NCBI RefSeq assembly: GCF_000743755.1
Contig: NW_014569529.1
Location: forward strand, 1 to 64,000
Direction of reading: 5' to 3'
Length of the DNA stretch: 64,000 nucleotides
DNA from: Blastocystis sp. subtype 4
Lineage: Eukaryota
The first letter of the stretch is position 1. Each line of letters starts with the position of its first letter. A model generated the notes under the pieces. The model was given only the letters and a program-made list of their open reading frames with translations. It was not told the origin of the DNA and did not search any database. Both the position numbers and the translations under genes were made by a program. This document shows, piece after piece, positions 5,900 through 64,000 of this stretch.

Positions 5900-5982
5900 A
5901 TTTCGTCGACCGTCTTCTTTCTTTCGACCTCCTATAGAGATTTCCTAGAATATACAAGAACCGAAATAAACAGCATGAAAAC

Positions 5983-5990
5983 AACAAACA
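5983..5990 (-). terminator. TGTTTGTT 3'-end motif of the STEEP1/UPF0235-like gene
   Basis: Exact motif 5 nt after the TGA at 5998-5996. Confidence 0.8.
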
Positions 5991-5995
5991 GAGAA

Positions 5996-6925: not shown

Positions 6926-6963
6926 TGCTACTTATAACAAAAATGGAAGAGTAACGAAAAGGA

Positions 6964-8524: not shown

Positions 8525-8553
8525 GAGTTTAATGACCTACAACCAATGACAAC

Positions 8554-8561
8554 AACAAACA
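8554..8561 (-). terminator. TGTTTGTT 3'-end motif of the URB2-like gene
   Basis: Exact motif 24 nt after the TAG at 8588-8586 and about 30 nt before the SEPSECS ATG. Confidence 0.8.
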
Positions 8562-8585
8562 TATCTCATAAATGATAGACCGTTC

Positions 8586-18757: not shown

Positions 18758-19370
18758 TAACTGAAATCTGTACCAAAAAACACCCTTCTTTTGGAATTTG
18801 TGATTGATAATTACTAGTGGACAGTCACTTCATGAATCATTAAGAATAAAAGGATATAAAACGTCAAAGAGAGAATACAGATACATCAATATGTATCCCA
18901 CTCTATAATTCTAAATTCGTTGTCTGTAACAGTCAATTGTTCACTACATCTAGACTATAATTCTATTGTCACAATATCCTAACTAGTCTTCATTCTATCC
19001 TATAGGAACATCTATTCATAGTTTACCCCTTGTTATGACCAACTAGAATATTTTAACTCAGAAATGTATTCTCACAAAAGAGAAATGAACGTTTTTAGAT
19101 AGGTATAAAATTCTCTTGCCATCTATGCAATATATGACATTTAAGATTTGGTCCTTATTTAACCAATCATTCTGTGGTTACTACCATTCTATTGGTCCTT
19201 TATGGGTCTTTATTTTGCAATATATTTGTGGTTTGGTAATTTTTCTGGAAGGACGTTTTTTCTACCTCCCTTTCGATTTCAAGTCTTCACAATACTTTTT
19301 GGAGACATCGCGAGTATTCTCCTTGTATCTTTTCTTGTTATATTTGGCTTCTTTATTGATCAAGTATTTA

Positions 19371-22300
19371 ATGAGAATGGATATGTGTTATAAAAGGTGA
19401 GTTTTGCGTGTGTAGTTGTAACATTGGTAGATTTGTTGCTTTACTGCTGGTACTAGCTGCCGTAGCAGTGAGTGTTGAAACAAACATGAATTATGAGTCT
19501 ACGGTTCTCGTGAACAAGGACGTGGTAGTTACCGATTCCAAGTTCATGTGGCTTCCAGATGACGAGCTTCGTGCATCTTGGGGTAGCCGTGACGTTGAGA
19601 ATGGCAAGTGGGGTTTCGTTTCTGAGAAGGTCCCGTACTCACCTGTTTCTCAAGTTTCAGGCTCTGTTTTTAACATCTTTGATGGTGACTTGACCAGTGG
19701 CTTTGTCTGGAAGGCCGTTTCTCTTTCTGAGAAGTGCCCCGTAGACAGTAGTAACTGTGTTGAAGATGGTGACATGGCACGGTAGGGAATTGAGTTTTGG
19801 GAGTTAGTTGTAGGTTCAATCAGGCTGAGGGTGGATTGAAGTGCTATGATGCTGAGGGGAACGAGTGTTCTTCGGAATGCAGTTTCTGTGATAACCTCCG
19901 TGCTTCCGTGGTCTTCGATACCGAGAAGTTGATGATGGTTCAGAACATTGCTGTTTTCGTGCAGAATGCTCCCTCTGCTCCTCGTGCTTGGACTGTGTCT
20001 TACTCCTTCGATGGTCCGATGGGCCCTTGGATGAAGTTCGCTGATCACCAGATGTCTGAGCTTGTGGAGGGTGAAGTGTCCATGACGGAGATGCATGGAG
20101 GTGTGATTGCTGCTCGCTATTGGAAGATTGAGATTACCTCCAATTGGGGAGCTGCTGAAGTCGAGCTTAAGGAAGTGCGTCTGTTTGGTGTTGTGAATGC
20201 GGAATTGAGCCGTCGTCTGGAGGATGTGAAGGAGATCACTGTGGACGGTGAGAATATGGAGGCTACTGACTACGTTCTGAAGTATACCTTCAAGGGTGAG
20301 GCCCCTTTGTATGTCCAGGGTTATACGCTGTCTGTGGTGCGTATCAACTCGGTGAATCTGGACAATGGTTCGACAGGAGACAAGAACGTTCTGATTGTAG
20401 GCCAGCCAAAGACTTTCTATGTGAGCATCAGCAACCATGAGGATCTGAGTCGGGATACTGTGAAGTATGTGAAGGGAACTGATTGCTCAGCCCCCGCTTA
20501 TGGTGAGGAGAAGCATTTGGTGAACAATACGTTTACGGTTGTATTCAACGAATCAACTGACGCGAACTTGACTCTGTGTTATCGCTTACAGTTCGATGAG
20601 ACGTATAAGCCTGAGGAGTATTTCCCGATTGGCGACTTCTCTGTGCAAATGCGTGATGTGTACAGTCTGACAGCTCTTGTTGGAGCTTCTGATTTTGCTG
20701 TAAAGGGTGTTCCTAAGACATGGCGTGCGGATGTCCTTGGTTCGTCTGTGGATGATCAAATTGGTTTTAAGATTAATGGCGAGTGCGTGATGGTTCCTTA
20801 CGTATTGGATGGTTTCACGTACACGTTCAACTATGAATCTGTGGAGGGAGAGGAGGTGTTCCCTCTATGCTACAAGTTTGTTGGCGAGGAGGTTGTTGTG
20901 TTCCCTGAGTTGACTGTTCGTGTGGGACATCTTGATTCCTTGATTCAGAAGAGTGGATCCGCCAACGTTATGATGACTGATTCTTCTAAGAGCTTTTTTG
21001 TGCAGGGTGTTGGTGTTGCTAATGGTGATGAGCTGTTCGTGAGTTCGGATGACCACTGTTCCTCGGACTCGGTGACTCCTGCTATTGTTTCTAATGGTGC
21101 TGTAACTGTCACTGCTTCGACTGCTGGAGCTCTTCATGTATGCTACAAGTTCGCTAACGAGCCGTTCTACTGGTCGGCTGTCGTGATGAATGTGTATGAT
21201 GTATCCTTTGTTCCTGGATCAGGAGATGTGAAGATCTTGATTGTAAATCAGACTAAGACCTACGATGTGGTCATTGATGGTCCTAGTGCTCATTTGTTTA
21301 CTGGTTTCATGTCGTTGGTCCCTGGCCTTTCTTGCTTAGGTGATGCGGTGATGACTTCTCCAATGACCTCGACGATCTCGGTCACTCTGGATCGGGTCTA
21401 CGAGGAGTTGAGCATGTGTTTCACTTTGGTGCATGACGGAGTGCATGAGTCTCCGAAGAATTATGGATTGATGACTCAGAAGGATTTATGGAACCTGCGG
21501 ATTGAAAACAGTGAGGTTTTGTATATCTTGAGTGAAAGTACAACTCCTGTGAATGTTACTGGTCGTGGTATTTCTAACGAGGATACTTTGTTCTTTGTTG
21601 AGAACAGTGCTTCTTGTGAGACGACTCCAGAGATCATTTTCCATGTCGATGATAGTATAGCTTTAGTCTTCTTGCCTCATGGATACAATATGCTGATGAA
21701 GATGTGTTATCGTTTTGTGAACGAGACAGCTATTCCTCTGGAACGTCCAATTTCTGTGTATGGTATTGAGACGGATCTGAATGCCTATGCATTCATGAGT
21801 GTTACTGCGTTCTTCCATTTGCAGGCTATGCCTCTTATGTCAACATCTGATAAGTACACATTCGTGCAGGAAGGATTGAGTTGTCCTACAGATGATAGCG
21901 TGTATAAATCAGTGGTATTGAATGAGTACAACCGTTATGTGTTCGAGACTTCCACTATTGCTACGTATGTCCTCTGTTATAAGTTCTCTGGTATCAATCG
22001 TTATGGTCAGTTTGCTTCTGCTAGTACCACGGTGATTGATCACATTGTTGTGTATCCTCGTGATAACATCTATGGTACTGCTTTCACTTATGTTACAAAG
22101 GACCTGGTTTTCTCTGGTAACTCTGTGCAGGCTGGAGATCGTGTGAAGTATGTGAAGAACAGTTGTGATGAGAGTGACTTCAATATGGAGACGACCAATA
22201 TGGAGTATTATACTCTGGATGCTTCCCTTTCCTTGAACCTGTTTTACACGGCCACTGTTGACACACTTATCATGTGCTACAGTTTCTCTAAGTTTGATGA

Positions 22301-28300: not shown

Positions 28301-31300
28301 CCAATGGGTGGTTCTGTTCCAGATGCCGGTGATTGGTCTGAGCAATATTATTCCTGAGACTATCGTTGCTGACAAGGAGTATACCTTCTTCGTGAACGCA
28401 ACGCATATTCGTGGTGACTGTGACGTGGACAAGCTGACATTCAATGAGAATTGGATTAATTATGGCTGTAACTACACAAACAACCTTTACACGGGCAGTT
28501 TGAATACAATCTTCTCAGATAACATGTCTGGTCCTGTACTCCTTGGTGGTATTGGTAGCAACAGTTGTAGTAATCGTCTGGGTCCGAATGGTAACTACAT
28601 TGTACTGGACTTCGGTCAATGCATGGATGTAACTAAGCTTGAGATCACTGCTGAAGATACAACGTCAGATGTGAAGACTCTGCGTGTGTACACAGCTGCG
28701 GACACCGAGTTGTTGTTCAATGAGGTATTGTTTGATGATAACGATAATCATGTATCTGTGGGTGTAAACACAAAGGAGTTGGACTTCTCAGGCCGTATGA
28801 TGAAGCTGGTATTTGTGGAGAATAATGGCCACCCAGTTTATACCACAGTGCGTAAGATTGCTCTCTTTGGTCGTCCTTGTACTTCTAATCCTGATTATGC
28901 TGTGAAGTATGTTGCTCCTGAAGATGCTTGTGAGACAGAAGCTGAGGAGTTCACCGTGTCTATGTGCTCGAAGCGTTTCACTCACACATTTAATAGCACT
29001 TATGATGAGAAGGTGGTGTGTTTCAAGCATCCTCTCTATCCTTACTATGTGAAGTATCCAGATATTGTGATGACAACGAAGTATATCACAGGCTTTAATG
29101 GAAGCAATCAGCTGGGTAGTGGCACTAGTCGTTACTTACAATTAAACGGTAAGGGTATTACTGCTGGAGACGAAGTGAAGTTCGTTCCTGAGGATCGTCC
29201 TTGTACCGATGATGCGACAGTGTTCTCTGTGATTGGTGATCATTCTGTGAAGGTATATGGCTTCAACGAGACTGGTAATTACACGTTGTGTTATCGTTTT
29301 GTGAACAGTATTGACTCGTTCATGCGCTATGATAACGTGACGTTAGAGGTGGTGAATGTTGCAGTCATCTCTGTCACTCCAAATGTAGCGATTGTGAATC
29401 AGGAAACTGTGATTCATTTCTCTGGCTCTGGTATTACGGAGTCGGATACATTCCGGTTTGTGACTTCAAGTCACTCATGTAATGATGAATCAATCTGTGA
29501 TGACGTCTATCAGGTGGATGCAGATGGTTCATTAATCTGTACTAAGCCCTATCTAGTAGATGCTGATGGTTATGCTACCGTGATGTTTACAAAGCCTCTC
29601 TCTTCTGGTAAGGTATGCTACAAGTTCGGTTTGTCGGATACCTATACAGATCTGGGCCTGTTGTTCGAGGTATATAAGGTGAATGCTATTAAGCCTTCTG
29701 CCTTTGTTTCTGAGATTCCTGAGGATGTGACGTTCTCTGGAGTGGGTATCACGATTCGGGATAAGTTTGCCTTTGTGGCGCATGGTGCTGATTGCAGTAC
29801 TGCCTCTCCCTCTAATACTTATGATCTGCGATCCTCAACTGTGGATGTTGTGGGTAAGGAAGTGACTCTGCATCGTCGTAATGTGACCTTGATTGCCTCT
29901 AGAGAGACTGTGATGGATGTGTGCTATACACTGTATGGTGTCGATGACCCCATTGTGCTTGGTTCCGTGACTGTGACTCCCAACGTTATTAGCATGTACA
30001 ACGAGGACAATCCTGATGATCTGTTCTACATCAGCAACAAGCCTACTTCGTTTATCGTCGAGGGACAGGGTGTAGGACGTGAGACAACAGAGAAGCTTCG
30101 TCTGTTGGCTCCTAGTTCTCTGAGCTGCGACGACTACCTCGTAGAAGTAGATGCTGCTCGTCAGATAGATGGACGCTCACGTGTTTCTGTCACTCTGAAT
30201 GTGGCTAATCAGGATTCTCTTGCCGTTTGTTACAGTTTTGTGAGCATTGGTTTCCGTCGCATGAGTGTGTTGATTCCTGTGCTGAAGGTGAATGTTGTAT
30301 ACAATGGTGATTCGGTCCTGTCTTCCGTGTACGTGGATTCGTACAATACTTTCTCTGTCGATGGTTACAATCTGCAGACTGGTGATTTGATGAAGTTTGT
30401 AGATCGTCTGGGTCAGTCTCAGTATTCTTGCTCGAGTTCTGGCAATGCTCTTCATGGACAGCCTCCTGTGAACATGACATTGATGGCTTCGGGCCGTACT
30501 CAAGGAATCTTCAGATACACCGAGCCTGGTCTGAATCTGGCTCTCTGTTATTACTTCGCTTCTCATAACATGTATGTCCTGTTCAGTGATATCCAGTTGG
30601 ATGTGATCGATGTGGCGTATGAGAGTGAGGATGTAGCCATTGTGGGTGAGACATACACCATGGAGTTTAGTGGTGTGGGTCAACAGGTGGGAGATCAGGT
30701 GATGTGGATCACTGATGATGCCCAAGGCTGCCATCCTTCTTCTCCTTATGTTGTGACTGATGTGAAGTATCTGGATGAGTACAAGCGTGTGGACTTTGTG
30801 TTTACTTCGACCTACAGAAACTTGCACTTATGTGTGAAGACATCTGATCAGCCATGGGCTCTCTTGACGGAGTATCGTCTCGATGTTTTGGGAGTGACTT
30901 CTGCGAGTATACCTGATTATGCCAGCTGGCAGAACCAGACTGTGACCAGAATTATGGCTCATGCTCCTACTACCATGGAATTCAATGATAGTGATGAGGG
31001 AGATAAGGCGAAGTTCATTCCTGCTGACAGTAATTGTAATGGTGACATGGGCAAGTGCGGAGTGATGAACGTGTCTGTAAACAATACAATAACTGTTAAG
31101 TGTCCTGCTGTGGAGAAGGTGGTTCTCTGCTACTATTTCGGTCGTGCTCATATGTGGAAGAAGTATCCAGAATGGGCTTTGACGGTTCAAGGACCTACTT
31201 CAATGTCTACAAATCTGAATGTGGTAGATGATGATATGGTAGCTTCGATTACTTTGTCTGGAGTGAATGTGACTGGTGACTGCCGTCGTAGTCCTGCTTC

Positions 31301-34300
31301 TGAAGATGCTCAATTTATGGAGAGTTTAACAGTGGAAACCAACGATCCTGCTATTTCAGAGAGCATGATCAAGGCTGCTATGGTTAATACTCAGTATGGA
31401 ATCTCTTCAGAGATTGGTCATCCTTTCAATATTACCTTCTCTGCCCCTTCGGATTTCTCTATACAGTCATTCCATATCCTTGCTCCAGTAAGTGATATTT
31501 CTCCTCGGAACATTGAAGTCTATCGTATGCAGAACAATGCCTGGGTCCTTGCCTTCCAATGGGTGAATTCTTACGATGATGCAGGTACTACGATCCCTGG
31601 AGGTGATGATTCGTTCCATGGAACTTCCAATAAGTGGATGCTTACGATTGTGGATACATATCTGACTACAGCATCAGAGTATAATGATGATCTGGAGAAT
31701 TTCACCTACTTCACTGGAATCAAGATGTATTTGTCTTCAGCAGGGGCTCGTGAGTATGTTGCTGTTAAGTTTGTGGAAGCTTCTGCAGACTGCTCTGATC
31801 TGAATGAATCTGCGATGCTTGATCCTGTGTCACATGAAACATTGCGTAGTGTTCCTATGAACTCGTGTTCGGGTCTGTTGAATGCTTTCACAGTGGAAGA
31901 CTACTCGAAGCAGTACAAGTTGTGCTATCAGCAGGCTAATGCTCCTGAGGGTTACAAGGGTTTCTTCTCCTATGATGATATGGTTCTATCCATTCGTCAT
32001 ACGTTGGTATCTTCGACTGGTAATGCTACCTACGCCATTGCCAATTATCCTAAGACCTTAGTGTTAACTCCTTCTGACAATGCTGTCGTATCTGAAGTCT
32101 TGTTTGTTCCTGATGCTGGAGCTTGTGAGGTTCCTGATGCTTGTGAGGAGTCATCTGGGTCTAGATGTCCTTTCCCGGTGAGCAATAATCGTGTGACAGT
32201 TACCTTCACAAACGAGGATGATAACATGCGTCTGTGTGTGAAGTACAGTGGCGAGAACTTCTTTGAGCCTCAAAGATTCAATATGATAGTTGATGTGTTG
32301 TCAGTCTCATCCTTTGCTCCTGCTTGGACTGTGTATGAGCCTTATACTCTGACTGTGACGGCTCGACACTTGAATCCTGACAACTATATTGTGTCGGATG
32401 ATCCTTCGGTGATGGAACATACGCATCTGGTGAATAATGTGGCTACCTTCAACTTCACAGGTGCTCGTCGCAATGTGGCGTTGTTCATGTACGTGGTGGA
32501 GTTGGAGGAAGAGGTTCCTTTGTATGAAGATTCCACTGCTGTGAAGGTGGATGTGTTTAGCTTCGGTTCTCTCTCTCGTAGTAACTTCCTGGTGAGCAAG
32601 ACTTATTCTAGCGTGGAGATTTTGGATTCTGTTGGAGTAGTTGGTAATACAAAGGCTCTTCTGTGTGCGGAGGATTGTAAGCAATATGATATTATCAGGG
32701 AGAATGACAAGTTGTATTTGAACTTCGGTAAGTTCGAGACAGCGAATACGTACGATCTCTACTACATCTTCCCTGAGGTGCGTTCTACCGAAATCGATGT
32801 GGGTATTCAGGTAGTTGTGAATGATATGGGTGAGTTTGTGCTCACTCCTTCTACTTTCTTCGTTGCGGGTGAGATAATCTCGGTGTCTGGACCTGGTGTG
32901 GATGCTGGTGATAGGGTCTATATGAGTTTCACGAACTCTACGGAGGGAGTTGAACCTCTTTCTGTGGAGCGTGTGGATGATAATGTGCAATTTGATACAT
33001 CTAAGATGAACTTCACAGAGGATACTGTTTATGTGTTCTATGAGTTCTACAGTGATGATTCGTTACACAAGAAGGTGTTTGTGACTGAGATGACCGTGTT
33101 GTCGGCTAGTCTCAACTATGCTGCTACTGCTATGGTCACTGAGTATCCTTACTATGTAACTGTATCCGGTCTCTCTCTCCAGCAGAATGATACGATTGTT
33201 CTGGCTCAATCATGTTCGGCTTTGAAGGAGGAAGAGGTGGATACATTGGATGAATTCCAGTTGAAAGATGGAATGTATCGTATGGTGTTCACCTCTTCAT
33301 ATGGAGGTGCGGAGCGTCAGTTGTGCTACTACTTCACTAATTTCGATACCTACGTGCCTTTGAAGACTATCACCATCTCCGATGTGAATGTGTACACGGC
33401 TTCTAGCTATTACTACGCAACCACGAACGAGGTATTGGAGATTGAGTTGTTGGGTGATTTCCCTGGTAGTTCTCAGAACCGTATTGCTCTGCTGTTGTCG
33501 AACTCTCCTTCGTGCGATGAGCATGTGATCAATTATGTAACAACAAACGAGAACATCTTTGTGTTCTATGTGCAAGATTTTACATATTGGGAGTATTATG
33601 TGTGCATCCGCTGGGACGAGGGTTCAACTCCGCGTGTGATTAGTGATACGAGAGTATTGGTTAAGGAGATTGAGAATGTGGGTATGTCTGTTGGAATTGT
33701 GGGTCAAAACGATGTGGTGACTGTGAGTGGTATTGGTCTGAACAGTGGAGATCAGGTACTGTTCGCTATGGACTTCTGTACAAGCCCCATTCATAATGGT
33801 CCTTTCACAGTGAAGAAGTTCCAGGACTTCTACTTCGAGCCCACTTGGAATATGAGTTCTAATCGGCCGTTCTCTCTCTGCTACCAATTCAAGGGAAGCA
33901 ACAAGTTTGTGTTGATTAGTAACATCACTAGATACATCATTGCCGTTGAGGAGATGCAGCCTACAGTAACACGTCGTGGTATTGAGGAGACTGTTTCTAT
34001 GATTGCAAATGTGGTGCCTGAGAATTCGGCTTTGTATGTAGCTACCAGTTGTCAGGAGGATATCAAGGAGTTGTTGGATATGAGCAATACGAATACGATG
34101 TTCAGTTTCACTCATATTTTCAATGAGACTGGTAGTTATGAGATTTGCTTGTCTCTGGATGATAATTACTTCACGAGATTGAGTCAGTTTGTCGTTGTTG
34201 ACATCGAGTCCTTGTCTATAGACCGTTGGGTAGCTGGATTGCCTCTCCCTTCGGCATTGGTGTCTTCGATGAATGTGACTGGATATATTGTAAACGGTTC

Positions 34301-46300: not shown

Positions 46301-49300
46301 TGGCGAGCGTATTTCGGATACGAAGGTAATGGTGACGATGTCGTCGAGCATCGGTAATCCTCTTTATCTGTGCTACAGACTTGTGAGTAATATGACTGTG
46401 AAGGTGGATATTCCTTTGACTATCTTCGAGACGAGCTTCTCAGTGAACTCCTCTCTGGAGGTGTTCCCTGGATCAACTGTGACGGTTTCGGGTGGTGCCA
46501 TCTCAACTAGAGATAGTGTGAAGATTGTGGCTGCAGATGCAGAGTGTTCTGGAGAGGCTGTGGCTACATATCCTGTCCAACAGACGGAGAAGATGTTCAT
46601 TCAGTTGGACAAGACTTTGCCTGCGGTTGAGGCACAGTACAAGATGTGCTACTTGTTTAATGGCGAGGTGATTAGTCAGAATGAGTATTTGATGAATGTG
46701 TACAGGTTGACAATGGAGAATAGTCTGTTCCGTGGTATCAATACTAAGCTGAGTGTACAGACGGGTATGGATCTGAAGAATGCTTCTCTGGTACTTCGTG
46801 ATGCAGATACAGAATTGACAGTGCCTGTGCAGCATGTTTCGAGCAATGAATACTTTGTCCAGGTGACTCTGCCTATGACAATGGGTAATTCGCTGACGGT
46901 GTCTGTCCAGAAGGGTGAGGAGATCATCTTGACGGATGTAGTGCTGACAGTACAGACTCCTGTTGTGACTTCGGTGACTCCTAGCGTTGCTTATCTGGGC
47001 GATGAGACTACCTTCAACTTTGTTGGATCAGGTCTGGGTGTTGGTGAGGCTGCAGATCGTGTAATCTTCACAACGGATTCGTGCGAGAGTGGAGTGGTTG
47101 CAAACCATACTCTTGTCGAGAATAGTGCGACTGTCCTGTTCACAGAAGCTATGTTGGAGGTCCACATATGTGTGTCTTTTAGCGATGGAGCTTTCATCCT
47201 GCTGGAGGAACCTTCGGTGACGGTCCGTGGAGTGTCTGCGTTGAATCCTACGTCGGCGGTAATCGGTCAAGAAGTGGCGATTGCCTTCACGGGTGTGGGC
47301 ATTGCTGATGGTGATAACGTGGCGTTTGTTGCTCCTGGTGACAGTTGCAATGAGGCTATTGTGGAGAGTGTTGTGGAGAATGGAGAGGTTGTGGTAACCT
47401 TCACCGGAGTGTCGAACACGATGGAGATGTGCTACTCTTTCCAGGAGTCTTCTGCAGGTCTGATTAAGCAGCCAGTGGAGTTAATGTTGACTGAAAACTC
47501 TTCGATTCCTGAGGTAGATACTGAAGAACCGATATCCTTGTTGGCATTTGTGAACGTGGAGCAGAATCTATACTTCCCTAACTTGGAAGTGGGCAGTCGT
47601 GTCTCCTGGACGGAGGGATTGGATTGTGAGAAGATGGTTATAGAACCTCAACGTGTGAATAACGACAACAAGGTTACGGTGGAGTTCACCAAGGGTGCTA
47701 GCGATATGAAACTGTGTGTGTCCACGAATGGTGTGGACTTTGACTTGAAGCCTAATGTGACTATGACTGTGGTGGAGGTGGAGTCGGTGGTAAGTGAGTT
47801 AGTGATGGGTCTGCAGGAGGAGGTGACGATTCCGGGAACTGGCCTGGATCTGGCTACGGAGGCTTTCTTCATTGCTGTGGCGGGTCGTCGTCTGGATGCT
47901 GCTGTGTCTTGCGTTGGTGGCGAGCGTGTGTCAACAATTGCTAAGGTGCAGGATGGTTTGATTAGCGTAACTATCACGAAGCCTGTGGATCGTGCTCAGT
48001 TGTGTCTGGTGTTCCCTGATCACATGGCTATGGCGTTCCTTCCTACGATGTCTGTGGTGTACATGGATGAGATGCCTCACATTTCGGTTCCTAATATGCA
48101 ACCTTCAACCCAGATCCTACCTCTTCATAACATTCCTGTGTTTGGTGACTTCGAGGAGCTGAGCAAGAATGAGGAGTTGTGTAGTAAGTTGATCGTTGAG
48201 ACAATGTGTGAGTCGGACTCGGATTTGAAGGATCTCTTCTTGAATAATACTTTCAATAACGTGACGTTAGTACGTAATGGAGCTGATTCTCTGTCTCTGA
48301 CACTACGCTTCCCTGAGGTTATGGAGGTGGATCGTGTGGAGATGACGGCAATGAGCAATGAGACTTCTCCTAAATCATTTACGGTAAGTGCTATCAATGC
48401 TGCTGGTGAAAAGGAGTTTATTGATTCGAAGGAGTTGGATAATCTCGAGTTCTTGGATCCTTACTATGACGTGTCTTTGACAACGCCATTCGTTACGGAC
48501 GTAATTGAGTTCACGTTCGAGTCTTTCGATGAGGAGAATCTGCAGGTGACCTTGAGTTCTATTGATGTCTTCTTGCGTCCTATACAGAAGCAGGTGGTGT
48601 CATTTGTGAGTGTCTCAGAGTCGCGTCGTTTGGAGGATATAGAAAGTGTATGTGAGGATGGTACCAAGGTGATTCCTCCTACCTATCTGTTTGGTGCGGA
48701 TACTGCGATGGGTAATAATCGTCTGGAGTTTGTGGCTAAGATCCCTGTGGACTTGGCAGTGATGTGTTACAAGTTCGGTTCGAAGCCATGGAAGGTGTAT
48801 AATGATGTGACTCTGTCTGTGGGTAACATCGAGTACTTCAACACGACATCTGAGTTGATTGTGGTCGGTAAGCCAGTTGATGTGGCATTGACTGGAACGG
48901 GTATTCGCAATGGTGATGAGATGTTCTTCGTGAGTGCTTCAGCGACTGAGTGTAGTGAAGATAAGGCCATTAGTTCTGTAGCTGTTGTGGAGAACCGAAT
49001 TGCTTCTGTTGTGTTCAATGCTAGTGGACGTAGTAAGATGTGTTATAGCTTCGGTAGTTATGGATTCTTTATGCCCAATCTTCTTCCCATTACTGCTGTA
49101 TCCTTCAACTCTTTGCAGACTCAGTCGTTCATTGTGGCTGGACATGCTTTCACTGCTGTTGTGTCTGGCGAAGGTTTATCTAATTTGGATCGTGTGCGAT
49201 TCCTTCCTGAGGGTTCTGATTGCTCGGATATGCGTTATGAGTTTGTTGTGGCTAATAATATGCTCAGTGCTTCTCTATCTGAGGGTGGTGTGTATTCTGT

Positions 49301-52300
49301 ATGCTATGGATTTGCTGGAACTACATGGTTCGAGACTGGTGAGAAATTGGAGGTGGCTTCAGTCACGGGAGTTCGTCCGAACATATTGTATGTGTCTGAG
49401 ATAAATACATACACTTTCGTGGGTCATCTGTTGTCAGTAGGAAGCAGTAACGATGAGGTGCGTCTGATCTCAGGCAATGATTGTGAGGATTATGTGAATA
49501 TGACTCCACTGTATGTGGTTGATTCACAAGTGACGATAAAGTTGGATTCCATTGAAGCTTCCTCATTGACGGTATGCTACAAGTTCGGTCAGTCAGATGA
49601 GTGGATTGATACAGGTGTGACTCTGACTGTAGTGAATTCTCTGGCTCTGACGGCGGTGACACCATCTGTTGTATTTGCTAATGAGGATGTGATGTTCACC
49701 TTTGATGTAACGGGAGCTTCGGAGAACGATTTGATGTCAGTGGGCCCGGATTGCCGTTCTGCAGAGAAGAAGAACTTAACTGAATCAGTGATTCTGCCTG
49801 CTGGAAAGAGTAGTGTGTGCTACTGGTTCGGTGGTATGATCGTGAAGTCTAAAGAAGTGGATGTTGTGAGTGTGAACAGCCATCCAGATCTTTTGTACAT
49901 TGTCAAGGCTGTACCTGAGGAGATTTCCGTGACGGGTGTTCTGATTTCTTCTGGCGCTACGGTGAGAATGATCTATAATGAGGGTGATGAAAGAGACTTC
50001 ACTGTACAATCTGGTAAGGTGACAATCGTGCCTCCTTTTGGTGGCAGTTTCACTCTGGTGTATTGTCTGGACAGTGGTTGCAATACATCGAAGGAGTTTG
50101 CTTCGGGTGTTGTGTTGGAGATTGAGTCGATTGATAAGGATCATCTGTTGGCTGGTGCTGAGACGGAATTCATCATTTCGGGCTACGGTATGAAGGCTAA
50201 TGATAGAGTCATGTTCGAGGCTCTGGAGACTGAGGGTCAGACTAGTACTTGCAGTGAAGAAGATGTGGATGCTACATTGAGTCTGGAAGATAGCAACACG
50301 GTGCGTATCACTGTGGCTTCCATGAAGGGAAACTGTGTGGGTAAACAGTTCGCTGTGTTCTACCAATTCCAAGATGTGGAGAGGCCAGTTAATACAGGTC
50401 GTGTGATGACTGTGGAGCGTGCTAAGATTGAGATTGAGTCGAATTTGGTATTCGCTGTTCCTCCTGGAGGAATGAAGCCTGTGACTATTCCTATTGGTGG
50501 TTACTTCCCTGAGGGCTCAACTCCATATGTGAAGTTCCAGTTGAAGAGTAAGAGTGGTTCGACCGCTGGAGGCATAACCTACGAGGTGATCGAGAATAAG
50601 ATCACAGTGCAAGAATTAGAGGGTAAGGATGACGTGTATCAGATCTGTTATACAATCGACAATGTGCAATGGGATTGTATCCCTGGCTCGGATGTGTACT
50701 TCAAGTCCATTAAGAGTGGTACTGTGGCTGTGGCTCAGCCTTATGTCCCTACAAGCTACACATTGTCTGCTTATGAGGATTCGTTGAGTGCTGACGATCA
50801 GTTTAAGTGGGTGTTACATGGCTGCTCAGATGTGGTATCCTATCCTGGAGAGATCGATGGTGATAAGCATAAGGTGGTGGTAGATGATGTAAATGACAAG
50901 GAGTTGACTCTTTGCTACAAGTTCAGTGGAACTGAGGAGTATGTCTACTACCCAGATGTGAAGCTACGTGTTGTATCTGTGACTACGCGTTATCCTAACA
51001 AGGTGGTTGTGTCAAAGTCAAAGCCAACGGATATTCATTACACTGGTAGCAATTTGGATGATCTGCAGGTGGTGTATGTGAAGCCTGAGGCTGAAGACTG
51101 TACAGAAGATATGAGGGTGTCTAATATAGCTACGATTTCGAATGAAATGGCGAAGGTAACATTCAACAGTTCTGCTATTGGAGCTAAGATGTGTATTGGT
51201 GTGGATGATAAGTTCACGATGATCTCAGATCCTCTGTTGACGATGACTGCTGTGAATCTGACTGCTGTCCACTCGTTCTATGCTAATTCGGAATTACCTT
51301 ATGTGACCTTCGATTCTATTCCTCTGGTGTTCACCACATCAGTGCCTGTACTTCGTCGGTATCATAGTGAGGTATCAACGAACTGGTTCGCTGAGGATTG
51401 TGGTCGTGTCAGTCATGTAATCAATGCTACAGAGATGGTTGGAGGCGTGTTGGAGTTCCCTGTGGACGGTGTTTGCGCTGGTACAGAGGGTCACTGGGTG
51501 ATGCTAGATCTAGGCGAGTCGAAGAATGTGCGTGAGGTGCGCTTCGCTCAGCTGAGCAATGTGAAGTCGGTGACTGTGAGTTATCTGCATGCACCTGACC
51601 GATACACCTTCAAGGTGGCCATCGAGAAGACGCCAGAGGAGACGGTGACGGGAGCCCTTGTAGTGCCTGTGAACTTCGTGGGTCGTTACTTGAAGTTGCA
51701 ATTCATGCCTAAGGATGAAAAGAAATCGATGTTGGTATCTCTGTTCAGTCTGGAACTGTCGAGTTCAGAACCTGCATTTGGTGACCAGCCTGTAGAACAA
51801 GTGTTTATCGAGCCTCAAGGCAGTATGACGGAGCAGCCCCCAACAGAACAGATGTTGACTCGTTTGGATCGTTCTGTGGAGTATCAGTTCGAGAAGGGAG
51901 GCAAGTATCAGGTGTGGTACAAGTTCTTCGGCACGGTATGGCATAAGTACAGTTATTACCAGATGAGAGGTATACGTGTTGATAACTTGACTTCAATCGA
52001 GTCTAACACGGCAATTGTGAATGTCCCCAAGATTATCACCTATAATAGCACGTATGGTATCGTATCTGAACAGGATCGTGTGTATTACATCCCGAAGGCG
52101 GAGGGAGCTCGTTGTACTCCGGAGTTGGCTGTAAATTCAGTACGTGTGAATACGGAGCCGTTCAACTTCACGACAGTGGGTGAGTTCTATACTTGTTACA
52201 AGTACAGCAAATATAACTTCGTGGATGAGTATGTCCTATACACTGCTCCAGAATTGACTGTTACTGTCTACGATACACCTGATCTGTCTGTTGGACCACT

Positions 52301-55300
52301 CTACTTGATTACCCATCAGGAGTCGCGTATCACCATAACTGGTAAGGGTGTATCTCCTCGAGACACTGCTACGTTGTCTGTAGTATGTCCACCTGTGGAG
52401 AACAGACCATTCATTGACCTACCCCTGCAATCTGCTGGTGATCTGAAGGATAAGGTGTATGCAGATGTGACTGTGAATTATGAGGAGAAGGAGTTCAAAG
52501 TGTGTTACAAGTATGAGTACACTGATACCTATCTGGAGATCAGTGGTACCATTCATATGGTGTTGCTCACTGGTATCTTGCCTGAGGAAGCTGTTGCAGG
52601 ACGCAATAATTCGATGATTCTAGAGGGCATGGAGTTACTTACAGGTGATGAAGTGAAGCTGATTAAGAAGGGTGAAGACTGTAAGAATGACGAGGGCATT
52701 TATTCGGTGGTGAAGGATAAACGTGCTGTAATGTTCTTCCCTGAGGAAGGTGAGACATATCATGCTTGTTATCGCTACAACACTGTGAGTAATGAGTGGT
52801 ATTCATATGAGTGGATTAAGGTGAATACTGTGGCTCTGACTGTGACTAGTGTGACACCGAATTTCGCATTTGTGGAGCATGAGGTGACTGTGACGATAGG
52901 AGGCCAAGGAGTGGCTACAAGCTGTGTGAAGTTCGTGCCTTACGGCAGTGGTTGCTCTAGAGAGATGGGTGATGAATACTACAAGACGATTTCGGCTGAT
53001 GGAAACTTCACAGTATTGTTAGATCCGAATCGGTATAGCCTGTGCTTCAGTTTCCAGTGTACCGATGCTTACGAGATGATAAGGGATCTGGAGTTTAGTG
53101 TGGTTGGTCTAACAAGTGTGGAACCTACTTTGTTGAATGCCTATGAGATCACGACCCTGAAGTTGAATGGTACGGGTATCACATACGGTGATGCTGTGAA
53201 GATGATTGGAATGGAGGAAGACTGTACGGAAGGAGCTCTTTATTCTCCTCTGGTAGTATCGCGTGATATGACGGTGGCGGTGTATCCGATTGTGGGAGGT
53301 GAGAAGAAGCTGTGTATTGAGATGCTGGTGTACGGCAACAAGGTGTGGCACGAAGCAGATCATCTTCCTATCCTTGTACGTGATATCCTTCCTGGCGAGC
53401 ATGTGGCTATCAAGGGAGTGGAGCACGTCTTCAATGTGACGGGTACGATTGGTGCTGTGTTGAATCGTGGCGATCAGATATTGTTCACGACGAGTGAAGC
53501 TGTGGTGGATTCAGATTGTATGAGCTATGCTGTCAACGAGCGTATCTGTGAAGTGGAGGAGGATGGAACCTTCAAGATGACATTCCTGGAGGCTGGCTTC
53601 GGCTTCAAGATGTGTGTGAAGTTCTCTGGATCGAATTCGTTCGTGCTTGCTCGCAATGTGACGGTGGATGTGCTTCATCTGGAGTCTGTTAGCAGACCAA
53701 TGATTGTGGCTGGTACGATGAATACTCTGACAGTGGAAGGTGTGGGTCTGGCTGCTGGAGACCGCTTGGCTGTGGTGCCCGTGGGTAATTCATGCCCTAC
53801 AGATCTGAATTCCTATTTCGAGGTGACTGGAGAGGAGACACTTACTGCGGACGTGATTGTGCCTACTGCGTTGAATGTGACCTACAAGGTGTGTTACAAG
53901 TTCGACCGATACACTACTCCGATTGCCTATGATTACTTCCTGTCAGTCTTGGATGTGGTAGCGATGACTTCAGAGACGATTGTGCGTCGTGTGCCTGTTA
54001 TGGTGACCTACAGTGGACCTGGTATTGGAAACGTGAACTACGAGGTAAGTGCTCTGGATCAGAGTGCTTGGACTGCTGGAGAGTTCACCTCTCTAGTGTC
54101 GGAGGGTCAAGCTCGTTTGGTAACGATGCCTGTGAGCTTCACTGTGACAATGTCGGAAACGAAGTTTGTGGAGGAAATTGCTCTTCGTGTGATTCCTGGA
54201 GCTGCTGGTCAGGTGTTGCCTCGTCCTTCGATTGCTGTGAGTTACATGTTCCATGGCTATGAGATTGAAGCAGAGTGTATGGTGACTGATGAGGAGAATG
54301 TGTTGACGGCATCATGCTTACCATTCGCTACAGACAACATGAAGGTTACCTTGACATCTGAGTCTACTGAGAACTATGCTGTGTCGCAATTCCTTGTGAA
54401 GGGAAGCAATCTGGAGGATAATGCATTCGTGTACTATCTGCCCGATAGCGAAGACGTGGATTGCACACAGGATCCTCCTGAATTCTATCCTGTGAGTCTG
54501 GCGACTGGAGAGGCTCTGTTAGTCTTCAGTGAGTTCGGTGCTATGAAGGCTTGCTTCCGCTTTGGTGGCTCGTTGTATGTGGAGCGTAGAAGTGTCCGTG
54601 CCGATGTGAACTTTGCCTATGTTGCAGATGTGTTGGTGTCGACTGTGGTAGTAGGTGACACTGAGAGCAAGGAGGTGACATTCTCGGGTCTGGGCATGTC
54701 AGAATATGATGAGTTCAAGGTGGTGTATGAGTCGTGTTCAGAGCCTGCTGTTGCGAATATGGAGGCGAATGTGGATAAGCATGGAGATAAGTTCGTTGCT
54801 CGTGTGAGACTCGATTCTTCGGATTATGATACGGTCCATCTGTGTTACCGCTTCAGTTCGAGTAAGTACTATCTGGTTCCTCAGATTCTGCCGGAGGCTG
54901 AAGAGATTCCTTTCACGATGAGTGTGAAGGATGTGAAGACATTCGAGGGTATGCCTGGTTTCGGTACTGCGATGTTGGTATCAGTAACGAAGCAATATGT
55001 TGTGGGTGGTTTCGGTATTTCGGATCAGGACAATGTGGTGTTCCGCAAGAACAGCTGTGATAACCTTGAGAGTTCTTTCAATGTGTTTAGTGGTAAAGTT
55101 GAGGTGCAGATAGATGAGCCGGGCGTGTACTACATGTGCTACCGCTTTAATGGAGAGCATTTCGTGATGTTCCCTAGTCATTCCATTCGTGTTGCTCAAG
55201 TAATCAGTGTTGAACCTCGTTATGTTGTGATTAATGAGGAGAACGAGGTGGAGATGCGTGGTGCTACCTTGATTGCTGATGATAAGTTCGGATTCACTCA

Positions 55301-58300: not shown

Positions 58301-59978
58301 TCAGCTGTGTGTGCGCTTGAGTGAGAACTCGCCGTTCTTCTCGTACTCGGGAATGGGTGTACGCTTCGCTCGTGTGATTCCTGTGGATGAGCCTTTGTTC
58401 TTGCTGACTAGTGTGGAGAGTGAAGTAGTATTCTCTGAGCAGGCTCTGGAGACCGATCGCTTCGTATTTGTCCCTGAGACTGGTGCTTGTCCTTCATCAG
58501 ATATGAATGCTGTGGCTTTCACGTTGAACGATAAGACAGCCTTGTTCACAGTGGCTACTGGCTTTATGAACTACAAGCTTTGCTATAAGTTCACAGACTC
58601 TGTTGGCTACTTCCCTTATGACAACTATGGTGTACATGTCCTGCCTGTAACCGGTGAGACGATGACAGTAGACGAAGTGAAGCATGTGTTCACAACACTG
58701 ACAAATTCTCAGAATATCGTGTCCTATTTGTTGAAGGCTACGACGGTGGATCCTGCAAAGAGTGACAAGGACACTATTACTAACGCTGCTACTGAGATCG
58801 TGTCGCATGATGTGAAGCATTCGAGTAAGATCTTCCAGGTGATGTATGGAATGAACTATGATATCAACTCGTTCGCTTTGAGTGTCATAGCAACAATGGA
58901 TGCTAGCAATGTTACTGATTTCGTGGGATCCTATGCTCAACAGGTGAAGACTGCTTATGATGCTGGTAATGGAGAGCAGCCTCAGACTTTGCTGGTGAGA
59001 TTGTTGACGAGCAATGCAGGTAATACGGAGAAGGTGGAAGCTATTCTGGATGGTTGGCGTCAGATGGCTGAGAGCAGTGATGTGGATCTGTCTACGGGTA
59101 ACACATTCGAATTCAGTGATGGCAGTGAGGTGACACTGGAGACAGGTAACCGTCGGTTGTTGACGGACAGTGGTAGTGATCTGGTGCGTATCAACCGCTT
59201 CGAGTGTGTGATGATCGATACAGATATCACAGAGGGATACTGTTACGAAGTGTTGATCAACGGTAAGGTAGATGGACAACTGTCAAGAGACTACTCATTG
59301 AAGTACCCGAAGCGTGATGCTGATGATGCTGCTTGTGCTTCTAAGAGAGAGATCCAGTCTACTGGTTGGACGATACGCGATGCAGAAGAGGAGAACGACT
59401 GTTCGTTCTCGAATGGAAAGGCAATCCTGACTGGACGAACCTTCGGTGTGGTGACGACATCTCCTAGCAGTCCTGAACCACCTTCTCAGTTGGATACAAC
59501 GGTGTTAACAGTGTTGCTGGTTGTTTCAATGATCATCTTCATCGTTCTCTTCATTGGTCTGGGCTACGCTCTGTGGGTGTACGTGCATCCAGCTGAGCCT
59601 GTGAATATGGAGGAGATGTGGGGAGGCTTCGACGAGGATCGTAAGAAGAATCTGGAGCAGAAGCGTCAGGAGCGTCTGGAGCGCAAACAGAAGTTATTAG
59701 AGATGGAGGCGAACTTCTATTCAAGCGATTCGGATTCGAGCGATGATCAGGGTGGAGAGAATCGGGAGACAATTTATGATGACTTGATGCCACCAGTGGA
59801 TGAGGGATCTGAAGATGAGGAAGACCTTCATGCCAGCTACAATGAGGCTATTCATACTGCGAACGATTCGAGTTTGTATGCCCAGCAAGCTGCCGAGAGT
59901 ACTGACATTGTCCAGGAAGAAGAAATGAGGAAGGAGGAAGACTTGGGCGAAGTTCGTAGCTCTGGTTCTCAGCATTAA
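19371..59978 (+). CDS. Giant (about 13,513 aa) type I transmembrane surface protein: signal peptide, tandem Cys-containing IPT/Ig-like repeats, discoidin/F5-8C-like domains, single TM, acidic tail
   Basis: Exons 19371-19396, 19431-19781 and 19814-59978 total 40,542 nt, in frame. N-terminus MRMDMCYKRFVALLLVLAAVAVSVE is a signal peptide. Uninterrupted 13,393-codon ORF. Hydrophobic helix near the C-terminus. TGTTTGTT motif after the stop. Confidence 0.93.
19397..19430 (+). other. Intron 1 (34 nt) of the giant gene
   Basis: GTGAGT...TGGTAG; joins AG|A (Arg) in frame with the signal peptide. Confidence 0.8.
19782..19813 (+). other. Intron 2 (32 nt) of the giant gene
   Basis: GTAGGG...TTGTAG; joins ORF 19408-19785 to the 13,393-aa ORF (DMAR|FNQAEG). 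Confidence 0.88.
20330..58650 (+). repeat. Degenerate protein-level tandem array of about 90-110 aa beta-sandwich repeats (order of 100 units)
   Basis: Recurring pattern (V/I)-x-P or GxS...K-x-F-x-(V/L)-x-G-x-G-(L/I)-x3-D-x-(V/I)-x-(F/W)-V-x4-6-C...(Y/L)-x-(V/L/M)-C-Y-x-F. Example VTSVTPSVAYLGDETTFNFVGSGLG resembles the IPT/TIG start. No obvious nucleotide-level identity between units. Confidence 0.85.
59502..59585 (+). other. Predicted single transmembrane helix of the giant protein
   Basis: VLTVLLVVSMIIFIVLFIGLGYALWVYV, preceded by a Pro/Ser stalk (SPSSPEPPS). Confidence 0.9.
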
Positions 59979-59997
59979 GGATGATTGAGAGTTGTAT

Positions 59998-60005
59998 TGT
60001 TTGTT
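59998..60005 (+). terminator. TGTTTGTT 3'-end motif of the giant gene
   Basis: Exact motif 19 nt after TAA 59976-59978. Confidence 0.85.
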
Positions 60006-60030
60006 TTGAATCATAGTTATGAGAGTTTAT

Positions 60031-60038
60031 TACAAACA
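60031..60038 (-). terminator. TGTTTGTA variant 3'-end motif of the WS/DGAT gene, inside the genomic ORF end
   Basis: Minus strand ATC TCA T|TCTG TGTTTGTA. Confidence 0.6.
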
Positions 60039-60042
60039 CAGA

Positions 60043-63474: not shown

Positions 63475-63492
63475 TGTTTGTTTGAACAAACA
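63475..63492. terminator. Back-to-back TGTTTGTT motifs for the convergent GT49 (+, 63475-63482) and Rab5 (-, 63492-63485) genes
   Basis: TGTTTGTT-TG-AACAAACA. Confidence 0.85.
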
Positions 63493-63533: not shown

Positions 63534-64000
63534 TTAACAATCGCATTTCTTTTCCTTCTGCTGAGGAGCAGCAATTACAAACGCGTCCGCTTTCTCTTGT
63601 ACGGGAGCACCCTTTGGAAGCTTGTGGCCGATGGATTCAAAGATCTCACGAACATTCAGAGCCATCTTTGCCGAAGTCTCCATAAACAGAAGATTGTTCT
63701 CCAAAGCATATTCCTCAGCCTCTTCGCGTGAGATCTGACGGTTATCCTCGAGATCGCACTTGTTTCCTGCGAGGGCAATGACAACGTTAGGATCGCCTCT
63801 TCTCTGCAGTTCCTTCACCCAAGACTTGGCTCCATTAAAGGACTCCTATTCTTCACTCCATCTACAAAATCCGTACACGGCTGGTAATATCATATACTAC
63901 AATAGCAGCTCCAGCACCTCTGTAGTACATAGGAGCCAAACTGCGATAACGCTCTATTTGTGAGAGGAGAAATGGAATCATACCCTGACCTGCAGTATCC
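63534..64000 (-). CDS. RAB5: Rab5-family small GTPase, 3' part (5' end outside window)
   Basis: Spliced [63 protein letters not shown]...FMETSAK...[15 protein letters not shown] is Rab5-type, with a CxC prenylation end. Confidence 0.93.

What the first reader, a model, noticed from the sequence alone, without database searches (positions are those of the whole stretch)
19371..59978. A 13,500-aa (about 1.5 MDa) single-pass surface protein: candidate fibril of the Blastocystis surface coat
Seen: one spliced frame of 13,513 codons with signal peptide, about 100 two-Cys beta repeats, many N-x-S/T sites, one C-terminal TM and a tail of about 130 aa. Known: tandem Ig/IPT-like arrays form extended rods, and Blastocystis has a fibrillar surface coat that binds bacteria. 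Inference: at a few nm per domain the ectodomain could extend several hundred nm as an adhesin or lectin scaffold. I do not recognise it as a characterised protein family.
Basis: partly seen in the sequence, partly recalled or inferred. Interest (0 to 1): 0.93.

Follow-up and report, generated by a model that had tools for sequence, protein, structure and literature searches.

The report
Giant segmented surface tether of Blastocystis
A gut protist, most likely Blastocystis, carries and transcribes a conserved gene for a 13,513-residue protein, predicted to be membrane-anchored, built of over 100 immunoglobulin-like repeats with side-mounted lectin-like modules and conserved motifs that are likely cut sites, which makes it a likely but untested adhesive scaffold of the cell's poorly understood surface coat.

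Summary
One gene (ATG 19371, introns of 34 and 32 nt, stop 59978) encodes 13,513 residues, 1.49 MDa. Both introns are spliced in RNA runs of two studies; RNA contigs run without further introns to at least 49,619 (the last 10 kb was not checked on RNA). Collinear relatives at 36-75% identity cover 79% of the protein. It has a predicted signal peptide, 100-120 two-cysteine repeats with an IPT/TIG-like fold, one predicted membrane helix and a 128-residue tail. N-glycan sequons are not enriched. New here: (1) nine discoidin/CBM32-like modules, eight budding from the same loop of a repeat, like the 'split domains' of bacterial RTX adhesins; (2) seven RRL motifs (0.84 expected), kept in 9 of 10 orthologue comparisons, matching the Toxoplasma ASP5 cut site; (3) a conserved YxxΦ sorting-type motif in the tail; (4) the repeat is an unnamed family in 946 proteins, also of diplonemids, trypanosomes and haptophytes. 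Best reading: a protease-segmented surface tether that captures glycans or bacteria. Localisation, sugar binding and cleavage are untested; the closest solved module reportedly binds no sugar. No description found in the searched literature.

The parts
19371..59978 (+). Whole gene: 3 exons, 13,513 codons plus TAA
   Evidence: RNA contigs
19397..19430 (+). Intron 1, 34 nt, GT..AG
   Evidence: joint in RNA runs X3, X6; absent in DNA run X7
19782..19813 (+). Intron 2, 32 nt, GT..AG
   Evidence: joint in RNA runs X3, X6, X8; absent in X7
19371..19473 (+). Predicted signal peptide (res 1-~23, spans intron 1)
   Evidence: basic n-region plus hydrophobic core, hydropathy 2.08; no SignalP run
19549..20204 (+). 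N-terminal discoidin/Sad1_UNC-like module (res ~49-256), the predicted distal tip
   Evidence: Pfam Sad1_UNC E 1.3e-4, 22.4 bits vs cutoff 22; 60% identical in orthologue P0186 vs 45% overall
20355..58670 (+). Array of 100-120 two-Cys IPT/TIG-like repeats of ~95 aa (res 307-13078), mean pairwise identity 18%
   Evidence: AF2 pLDDT 93 beta-sandwich; plexin IPT best by sequence and fold
28404..28886 (+). Inserted discoidin/CBM32-like module 2
   Evidence: F5_F8_type_C E 0.0027; flanks form one repeat
31269..31742 (+). Inserted module 3 (no Pfam hit on its own)
   Evidence: aligns with the others; flanks form one repeat
38319..38801 (+). Inserted discoidin/CBM32-like module 4
   Evidence: ESM Atlas 0.97 to F5/8 type C clusters; Pfam E 0.02
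41034..41492 (+). Inserted discoidin/CBM32-like module 5
   Evidence: F5_F8_type_C E 0.011
45519..45962 (+). Inserted discoidin/CBM32-like module 6
   Evidence: F5_F8_type_C E 2.1e-4
48129..48584 (+). Inserted module 7 (no Pfam hit on its own)
   Evidence: alignment
51324..51776 (+). Inserted discoidin/CBM32-like module 8
   Evidence: F5_F8_type_C E 0.003; host repeat poorly resolved
54018..54416 (+). Inserted module 9 (most diverged; no relevant Pfam hit)
   Evidence: flanks form one repeat, 39.5 bits joined vs 25.4 best half
20211..20219 (+). RRL motif 1 (res 259), linker after the tip module
   Evidence: kept in P0054 and P0121
35088..35096 (+). RRL motif 2 (res 5218)
   Evidence: kept in P0079
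35703..35711 (+). RRL motif 3 (res 5423)
   Evidence: kept in P0079
41958..41966 (+). RRL motif 4 (res 7508), in a loop near the end of a repeat
   Evidence: kept in P0140, P0155
47886..47894 (+). RRL motif 5 (res 9484), inside a repeat
   Evidence: sequence; no orthologue fragment covers it
48624..48632 (+). RRL motif 6 (res 9730), inside a repeat
   Evidence: kept in P0116 at 36% overall identity
59151..59159 (+). RRL motif 7 (res 13239), indel-rich loop of the membrane-proximal domain
   Evidence: RRL in P0064 and P0190, RRM in P0189
58668..59471 (+). Membrane-proximal region: eight-helix bundle then a Cys-linked beta part; no family assigned
   Evidence: AF2 pLDDT 70-91 for helices, <50 for the beta part; no usable family
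59502..59585 (+). Predicted single transmembrane helix (res 13356-13383)
   Evidence: hydropathy 3.15; 63-96% identical in orthologues
59586..59978 (+). Predicted cytoplasmic tail, 128 aa: basic helix, acidic Ser cluster, YDDL (59775-59786), conserved C-terminal DLGEVR-type motif
   Evidence: one YxxΦ at the aligned place in 4 of 4 tails
59998..60005 (+). TGTTTGTT Blastocystis polyadenylation motif 20 nt after the stop
   Evidence: motif as described in PMC5608401

Best explanation
This is one transcribed, conserved gene for a 1.5-MDa protein that is predicted to be a single-pass surface tether: it likely extends up to roughly 0.4-0.6 micrometres from the membrane, likely projects its nine discoidin/CBM32-like modules sideways to grip glycans or bacteria, and is likely cut at its RRL motifs during secretion. 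Steps: (shown) one spliced frame, repeat array, inserted modules, conserved RRL and tail motifs; (predicted) signal peptide takes it into the ER, the C-terminal helix anchors it, each repeat folds as a disulfide-closed IPT/TIG-like sandwich; (inferred) a secretory-pathway protease cuts after RRL, giving eight pieces of 23-553 kDa; sites that lie inside a domain (7508, 9484, 9730, 13239) would leave pieces held non-covalently, acting as tear-off joints, while linker sites (259, 5218, 5423) would release pieces; (inferred) the array forms part of the loose fibrillar coat and binds bacteria, mucus or neighbouring cells; (inferred) the tail YxxΦ lets it be retrieved or recycled.
For: Splicing in two studies' RNA runs and a 13,203-nt plus an 18,040-nt RNA contig with no further intron to >=49,619. 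Strain differences: 19 synonymous, 19 missense, 0 stop in 38 codons (40 of 67 differences shown), pN/pS ~0.28, indels in frame. Orthologue fragments cover 10,659 of 13,513 residues, Cys almost always kept, e.g. 94/102 and 50/54. Repeat model pLDDT 93; best matches plexin C1 IPT (HMM E 0.0017 with both Cys aligned; VIA Z 7.9, rmsd 3.0, 85 aligned). Module profile matches CBM32 4A42 E 1.5e-4; Atlas 0.97. In 7 of 8 inserts the repeat resumes at profile column 28-35 after the insert, the 'split domain' layout that projects ligand-binding domains in RTX adhesins (PMC12077191, passages). RRL 7 observed vs 0.84, 0 of 300 shuffles reach 7; kept in 9 of 10 site-by-cluster comparisons, the tenth RRM. 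Internal RRL sites are cut by Golgi ASP5 in Toxoplasma (PMC6212819, passages). MpIBP, same mass and ~120 Ig-like domains, is 0.6 micrometres long (PMC5550230, passages). The coat consists of loose fibrils and is associated with bacteria (PMC6115916, passages).
Against: No localisation, proteomic, binding or cleavage data. The nearest solved module, CBM32-6 (4A42), is reported not to bind sugar (PMC3313936, passages); 3 of 9 modules have no relevant Pfam hit and only 1 of 9 passes a curated cutoff. Fold Z-scores under 8 are in the tool's 'common arrangement' range and no Foldseek hit reached E 0.001. RRL is absent at the matching place in paralogue P0002 and only mildly over-represented in the wider family (51 vs 35 expected in 150 proteins); no Blastocystis protease for it was identified. 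Plexin IPT arrays curve into rings (recalled), so a straight rod is not assured. The published coat chemistry is carbohydrate, and collagen-like proteins were proposed for trapping bacteria (PMC5608401, section 11). RNA cover of 49,620-59,978 was not obtained. The join test took the best of 81 cut points per insert and had no random control.
Confidence: 0.5

Rival explanations
1. A giant capture-and-uptake receptor (working like megalin or the mannose receptor, recalled): the ectodomain binds glycans or bacterial material and the tail YxxΦ plus acidic cluster drive clathrin-adaptor uptake for feeding; it is a minor membrane protein rather than the bulk coat fibril.
For: Exactly one YxxΦ at the aligned position in 4 of 4 tails inside an otherwise variable stretch; tail 46-82% identical in orthologues; feeding on coat-bound bacteria is an open idea in PMC6115916.
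Against: No NPxY or dileucine motif; a ~0.5-micrometre ectodomain is large for a coated vesicle (inference); YxxΦ is short and common.
Confidence: 0.2
2. A purely structural scaffold or spacer (coat, cyst wall or vacuole lining) whose discoidin-like modules mediate protein-protein or self contacts, not sugar binding.
For: Closest solved module lacks sugar binding; modules are not more conserved than repeats (28-56% vs 36-52% overall); net charge strongly acidic (1794 D+E vs 892 K+R).
Against: Split-domain insertion is the layout used for ligand-binding domains elsewhere; a conserved cytoplasmic tail suggests traffic or signalling.
Confidence: 0.15
3. A mechanosensory or signalling receptor in the manner of polycystin-1, fibrocystin or plexins, where cleavage near the membrane and pulling on the ectodomain control the tail.
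For: Relatives use the same repeat in front of REJ+GPS, RasGAP, SAM or EF-hand domains; helical-then-beta membrane-proximal region with an RRL loop resembles a GAIN layout.
Against: No GPS/REJ hit, hhalign against six GAIN-bearing relatives gave probability 0.1% (shallow profiles), no GAIN among fold hits (beta part poorly modelled); tail has no enzymatic domain.
Confidence: 0.1
4. An artefact or a run of several genes: the frame is split by hidden in-frame introns or internal polyadenylation into smaller proteins.
Against: RNA contig reads through 32101, and a cut there gives no stop; no second signal peptide or TM inside; relatives P0186 (4,581 aa) and P0176 (2,740 aa) are uninterrupted and collinear; no DNA self-repeats that could misassemble.
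Confidence: 0.04

Closest known systems
Bacterial RTX adhesins MpIBP (Marinomonas, PMC5550230) and AhLap (Aeromonas, PMC12077191)
   Same: Mass (1.5 MDa), ~120 tandem Ig-like extenders, carbohydrate-binding-type modules budding from split Ig-like domains.
   Different: Eukaryotic type I membrane protein with signal peptide and C-terminal TM; repeats diverged (18% mean identity) and disulfide-type; modules spread along the whole length; no RTX repeats or T1SS signal. A likeness of design, no homology shown.
IPT/TIG-array receptors: plexins, MET/RON (PDB 6VXK, 5L7N, 5LSP); fibrocystin/PKHD1L1 (recalled)
   Same: Repeat fold and two-Cys pattern; single-pass type I topology.
   Different: 100-120 repeats instead of 4-14; no Sema, PSI, GAP, G8 or PbH1 domain detected; only 3 of 88 repeats hit Pfam TIG at E<=0.1.
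CBM32 / F5/8 type C (discoidin) and Sad1_UNC galactose-binding-like domains (PDB 4A42)
   Same: Profile and language-model similarity of the nine modules.
   Different: Mostly below Pfam cutoffs; binding residues not verified; inserted inside repeats.
Toxoplasma TEXEL (RRL) / Plasmodium PEXEL substrates (PMC6212819)
   Same: RRL tripeptide, often followed by acidic residues, at internal sites of a secretory protein.
   Different: Stramenopile host with no known ASP5 counterpart tested; seven sites in one chain; no host-cell export.
Blastocystis He_PIG/cadherin-like Ig proteins (26 genes, IPR008009; PMC3129679) and collagen-like proteins (PMC5608401)
   Same: Proposed adhesion or bacteria-trapping proteins of the same organism.
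   Different: He_PIG is not among the 19 families hit by the 88 repeats; no GXY collagen repeat; far larger.
Uncharacterised giant protist proteins with the same repeat: Trypanosoma congolense G0URW6 (6,290 aa), Diplonema papillatum KAJ9453652 (5,563 aa, 'hemagluttinin family protein'), Diacronema lutheri KAG8459354 (REJ+GPS)
   Same: Many copies of the same unnamed repeat, mostly with a C-terminal TM.
   Different: Shorter, other accessory domains; none found described.

Membership tests
IPT/TIG domain (PF01833) | Pfam profile match above gathering score | tested here: inconclusive
   3 of 88 repeats hit at E<=0.1, best 4.2e-5; whole-segment 14.2 bits < 20.9; orthologue P0176 25.5 bits > 20.9
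IPT/TIG domain (PF01833) | Seven-stranded E-set Ig-like sandwich | tested here: met
   AF2 pLDDT 93, seven strands; the best VIA rows are mostly IPT/TIG domains, Z 7.0-7.9
Plexin/MET receptors | N-terminal Sema domain and PSI domains; cytoplasmic GAP or kinase | tested here: not met
   No such Pfam hit at E<=1 over residues 127-13513; tail only 128 aa
Fibrocystin/PKHD1L1 | G8 domains and PbH1 beta-helix after the TIG array (recalled) | tested here: not met
   No G8 or beta-helix hit; repeat array plus inserts accounts for nearly all the ectodomain
RTX adhesins | [quoted passage not shown] | tested here: not met
   No HemolysinCabind-type hit; C-terminus is TM plus tail in a spliced eukaryotic gene
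RTX adhesins (design only) | Ligand-type domains projecting from split Ig-like domains | tested here: met
   Flanks of inserts score as one repeat; consistent insertion column in 7 of 8; no 3D model of an insert-bearing repeat was made
CBM32 / F5/8 type C | Profile similarity | tested here: inconclusive
   5 of 9 hit F5_F8_type_C at E 2e-4 to 0.02, all below cutoff 28.2; 1 of 9 passes Sad1_UNC cutoff; joint profile hits 4A42 E 1.5e-4; Atlas 0.97 for module 4
CBM32 / F5/8 type C | Carbohydrate binding | not testable with these tools
   Closest solved relative is a reported non-binder
Polycystin-1 / GAIN-domain receptors | GAIN domain with GPS motif before the TM; REJ module | tested here: inconclusive
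   No Pfam GPS/REJ; hhalign 0.1% with shallow profiles; beta part pLDDT <50; HL/T motif replaced
TEXEL/ASP5 substrates | RRL motif in a secretory protein | tested here: met
   7 motifs, enriched and conserved
TEXEL/ASP5 substrates | Cleavage by an ASP5/plasmepsin V-like protease | not testable with these tools
   No genome held to look for the protease; no proteomics
Blastocystis He_PIG (IPR008009) proteins | He_PIG domain | tested here: not met
   Not among families matched by 88 repeats at E<=0.1 nor by the whole protein

The most novel reading that the evidence does not exclude
The protein is the long-sought protein fibril of the Blastocystis surface coat: a eukaryotic adhesin that converged on the bacterial RTX-adhesin design (extender repeats with lectin modules budding from split domains) and is pre-cut at RRL sites by an ASP5-like protease into non-covalently held segments, so the coat can be shed in pieces with bound bacteria. 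It would define a new repeat family shared by giant surface proteins of stramenopiles, diplonemids, trypanosomes and haptophytes, and extend TEXEL-type processing to stramenopile gut protists.
Probability: 0.25. Interest if true: 0.9.

Novelty: new variant of a known kind. Interest (0 to 1): 0.7.

Why it matters
Blastocystis is the commonest eukaryote of the human gut, and its surface coat is called 'intriguing but poorly studied' with no structural protein named in the review passages read (PMC6115916). A conserved, transcribed 1.5-MDa membrane protein with defined modules gives direct handles (antibodies to single repeats, recombinant modules, predicted cleavage products of 23-553 kDa) to test what the coat fibrils are and how bacteria are held. 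It would be among the largest single-pass membrane proteins (human MUC16 is about 14,500 aa, recalled). The unnamed repeat (946 representatives) marks a wider set of uncharacterised giant protist surface proteins, and conserved internal RRL sites point to an unrecognised processing route outside apicomplexans.

Tried and rejected
No whole genome is held, so paralogue counts and the protease could not be searched. RNA cover of 40,301-60,300 was not obtained directly; collinearity to 49,619 comes from contig coordinates already returned; 32 short in-frame GT..AG candidates exist in the unchecked part against 55 in the checked part, where none is used. N-glycan enrichment rejected. Internal polyadenylation at 32101 rejected as a gene end. 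DNA-level tandem duplication or misassembly rejected: no self-match at E<1e-3. GAIN domain: not supported by Pfam, hhalign, Atlas or fold search, but the model of that part is poor. Foldseek on the repeat gave only generic Ig-like hits, none at E<=0.001; on the C-terminal model the top row was Chlamydomonas mastigoneme protein at TM 0.14, not taken as a match. Search for full-length relatives of 5,445-17,325 aa gave 1 hit among 1,738 candidates, a 7,348-aa paralogue; the 'shorter' search returned only near-identical pieces, none named. Earlier-findings look-ups gave nothing relevant. Literature searches that found no description; subscription journals are mostly outside the library, and only 3 of 33 supplementary files of PMC5608401 were actually searched, so a mention there cannot be excluded. 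PMC12129017's supplement lists 217 Ig-like-fold and 3 IPT hits for ST4-BT1, so automated annotation may well hold this gene without discussing it.


Full report
Observation. The + strand holds one stop-free frame of 13,394 codons at 19794-59978. Two short GT..AG introns (19397-19430, 34 nt; 19782-19813, 32 nt) join it to an ATG at 19371, giving 13,513 residues, 1,494 kDa, pI 4.46, 282 cysteines. Hydropathy shows one strong helix at 13356-13383 and a weaker N-terminal one. N-x-S/T sequons are 118 against 112.5 expected: many, not enriched. The gene has no DNA self-repeats, so misassembly of a tandem array is unlikely.

Organism. No call names it. Introns of 32-34 nt, TGTTTGTT motifs (10 against 4.1 expected, 2 of 100 shuffles reach 10), one of them 20 nt after the stop, flanking GC of 35-42% and holders in mouse gut metagenomes fit Blastocystis, ST4-like (39.6% GC, modal 30-nt introns, same motif: PMC5608401, passages). 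This is inference.

Expression. Of 24 runs listed, 20 hold the stretch. Four were laid on 19200-39199: RNA runs X6 and X3 (two studies; X3's RNA label is a guess, but it is spliced) skip both introns, X8 skips intron 2, DNA run X7 skips neither. X3 gives a 13,203-nt contig over 19307-32575 and an 18,040-nt contig from 32546; a 19-nt repeat match and its loose end place that contig exactly collinear at 49571-49619. So about 30 kb is shown free of further introns, including read-through of an internal TGTTTGTT at 32101, where a cut would give no stop. The two contigs overlap by 30 nt only, so a single mRNA is likely, not shown; 49,620-59,978 was not checked on RNA. Strain differences in X6/X8 (40 of 67 shown) give 19 silent, 19 missense, 0 stop codons, pN/pS about 0.28, and in-frame indels.

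Repeats. An iterated HMM finds 100 units at 10 bits or more and 120 in all; five shuffles reach 4.4 bits and the reversed chain 5.2. The 88 best units (mean identity 18%, max 35%) keep one cysteine invariant and a second in at least 90%. Their profile hits plexin C1 with both cysteines aligned (E 0.0017, 1 of 4 hits to E 10). AlphaFold gives a seven-strand sandwich at pLDDT 93; VIA-align ranks IPT/TIG domains first (plexin C1 Z 7.9, rmsd 3.0, 85 aligned; plexin A1 Z 7.8; none at Z 8 or more); Foldseek gives generic Ig-like rows, none at E 0.001. Only 3 of 88 units hit Pfam TIG at E 0.1. The repeat is thus an IPT/TIG-like family that Pfam does not model.

Inserted modules. Eight gaps of about 150 residues interrupt the array, and a ninth module caps the N-terminus. 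Five of nine hit F5/8 type C below cutoff, one passes Sad1_UNC, three have no relevant hit. Their joint profile finds one PDB chain, CBM32 4A42 (E 1.5e-4); the Atlas puts module 4 at 0.97 with F5/8 clusters. Removing each insert lets the flanks score as one repeat; the repeat resumes at profile column 28-35 in 7 of 8 (best of 81 cut points each, no random control; clear gain in five, weak in three). This is the split-domain layout that projects ligand-binding domains from RTX adhesins (PMC12077191, passages). Against a lectin role: 4A42 is CBM32-6, reported not to bind sugar (PMC3313936, passages), and the modules are no better conserved than the repeats.

RRL motifs. RRL occurs 7 times against 0.84 in shuffles (0 of 300 reach 7); RRL[ED] 5 against 0.13; plain dibasic pairs are not enriched. 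Orthologue fragments cover six of the seven sites; counting one sequence per cluster, RRL is kept in 9 of 10 comparisons at 36-75% overall identity, the tenth reading RRM, often beside indels. These lineages are related, so the comparisons are not independent. The paralogue P0002 lacks the first site but has one RRL elsewhere; across the 150 best family members RRL is 51 against 35 expected. In Toxoplasma, Golgi protease ASP5 cuts after internal RRL motifs (PMC6212819, passages). Cutting here would give pieces of 23-553 kDa; several sites lie inside domains, where pieces would stay paired (inference, by analogy to SEA and Notch junctions, recalled).

Membrane-proximal region and tail. A shallow-alignment model (7 rows, mean pLDDT 62) shows two repeats, an eight-helix bundle and an unresolved beta part. 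A GAIN reading was tested and not supported, though the test is weak. The TM is 63-96% and the tail 46-82% identical in relatives. Each of four tails has exactly one YxxΦ at the aligned place plus an acidic cluster, and no NPxY or dileucine motif; that such motifs bind clathrin adaptors is recalled.

Relatives. The repeat profile finds 946 representatives at E 0.001, 150 listed. Unnamed fragments collinear with this protein cover 10,659 of 13,513 residues, among them P0186 (4,581 aa, 45%) and P0176 (2,740 aa, 48%, to the C-terminus); they are taken to be other Blastocystis lineages (inference). A 7,348-aa paralogue exists in 11 records. Of 20 clusters looked up, four gave an organism: two Diplonema species, Trypanosoma congolense and Diacronema lutheri. 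Other members add REJ+GPS, Calx-beta+LamG, SAM or RasGAP domains. No relative of full length was found; gene calls in the collection break at introns.

Mechanism. Shown: gene, splicing, repeats, inserts, conserved motifs. Predicted: secretion, anchoring, folds. Inferred: a tether of up to 0.4-0.6 micrometres (scaled from MpIBP, about 120 domains, 0.6 micrometres; PMC5550230, passages; plexin arrays can curve, recalled), lateral binding modules, RRL processing, a role in the fibrillar coat that is associated with bacteria (PMC6115916, passages). I give this 0.5, an uptake receptor 0.2, a non-binding scaffold 0.15, a signalling receptor 0.1, several genes 0.04.

Known or new. It works like a giant Ig-repeat adhesin but fails membership in RTX adhesins, plexins, fibrocystin and the Blastocystis He_PIG set (PMC3129679, passages). 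PMC5608401 (passages, section 11, 3 of 33 supplements) and PMC12129017 (abstract, passages, sections 7 and 9, supplement rows) do not describe it in what I read. Nine searches found no description. Verdict: real, well supported as a gene, new variant of a known kind, function untested; interest 0.7.

Noticed in passing
window 6964-8118 (-): SepSecS (selenocysteine synthase) exon, Pfam E 1.5e-103.
   Followed up: no
window ~14015-16328 (-): WDR3/Utp12-type WD40 gene in several exons.
   Followed up: no
window 60557-61147 (-): Wax ester synthase/DGAT-like exon, E 1.5e-4, convergent with the giant gene.
   Followed up: no
window 63534-63845 (-) and 63021-63470 (+): Rab-type GTPase exon and a convergent frame ending at back-to-back TGTTTGTT motifs at 63475/63485.
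   Followed up: no
window 479-5737 (-): Several long Ile/Leu/Ser-rich frames that look by eye like BspA-type leucine-rich repeats; no Pfam hit at E 0.01 for the two tested.
   Followed up: partly
window 17729-18829 (-): 366-codon frame divergent from the giant gene, ending at a TGTTTGTT motif; no Pfam hit.
   Followed up: partly
P0002 (cluster of 11): A second giant paralogue of at least 7,348 aa with 61 repeats at >=10 bits, an N-terminal module like ours and one RRL; its last 2,200 residues align with our residues 251-2473.
   Followed up: partly
P0048, P0034, P0023 and similar hits: Uncharacterised 4,000-7,000-aa proteins of Trypanosoma congolense and Diplonema with 20-30 copies of the same repeat, mostly with a C-terminal hydrophobic helix; no paper names their accessions.
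   Followed up: partly
P0019, P0029, P0188; P0013, P0018, P0027: The same repeat precedes REJ+GPS (polycystin-like) or Calx-beta+LamG domains in other protists.
   Followed up: partly
window 19371-59978: Only two introns, both in the first 450 nt, in a 40.6-kb gene of an organism averaging about five exons per 1.4-kb gene (PMC5608401 Table 1); gene GC 41-50% against 35-42% in the flanks.
   Followed up: no
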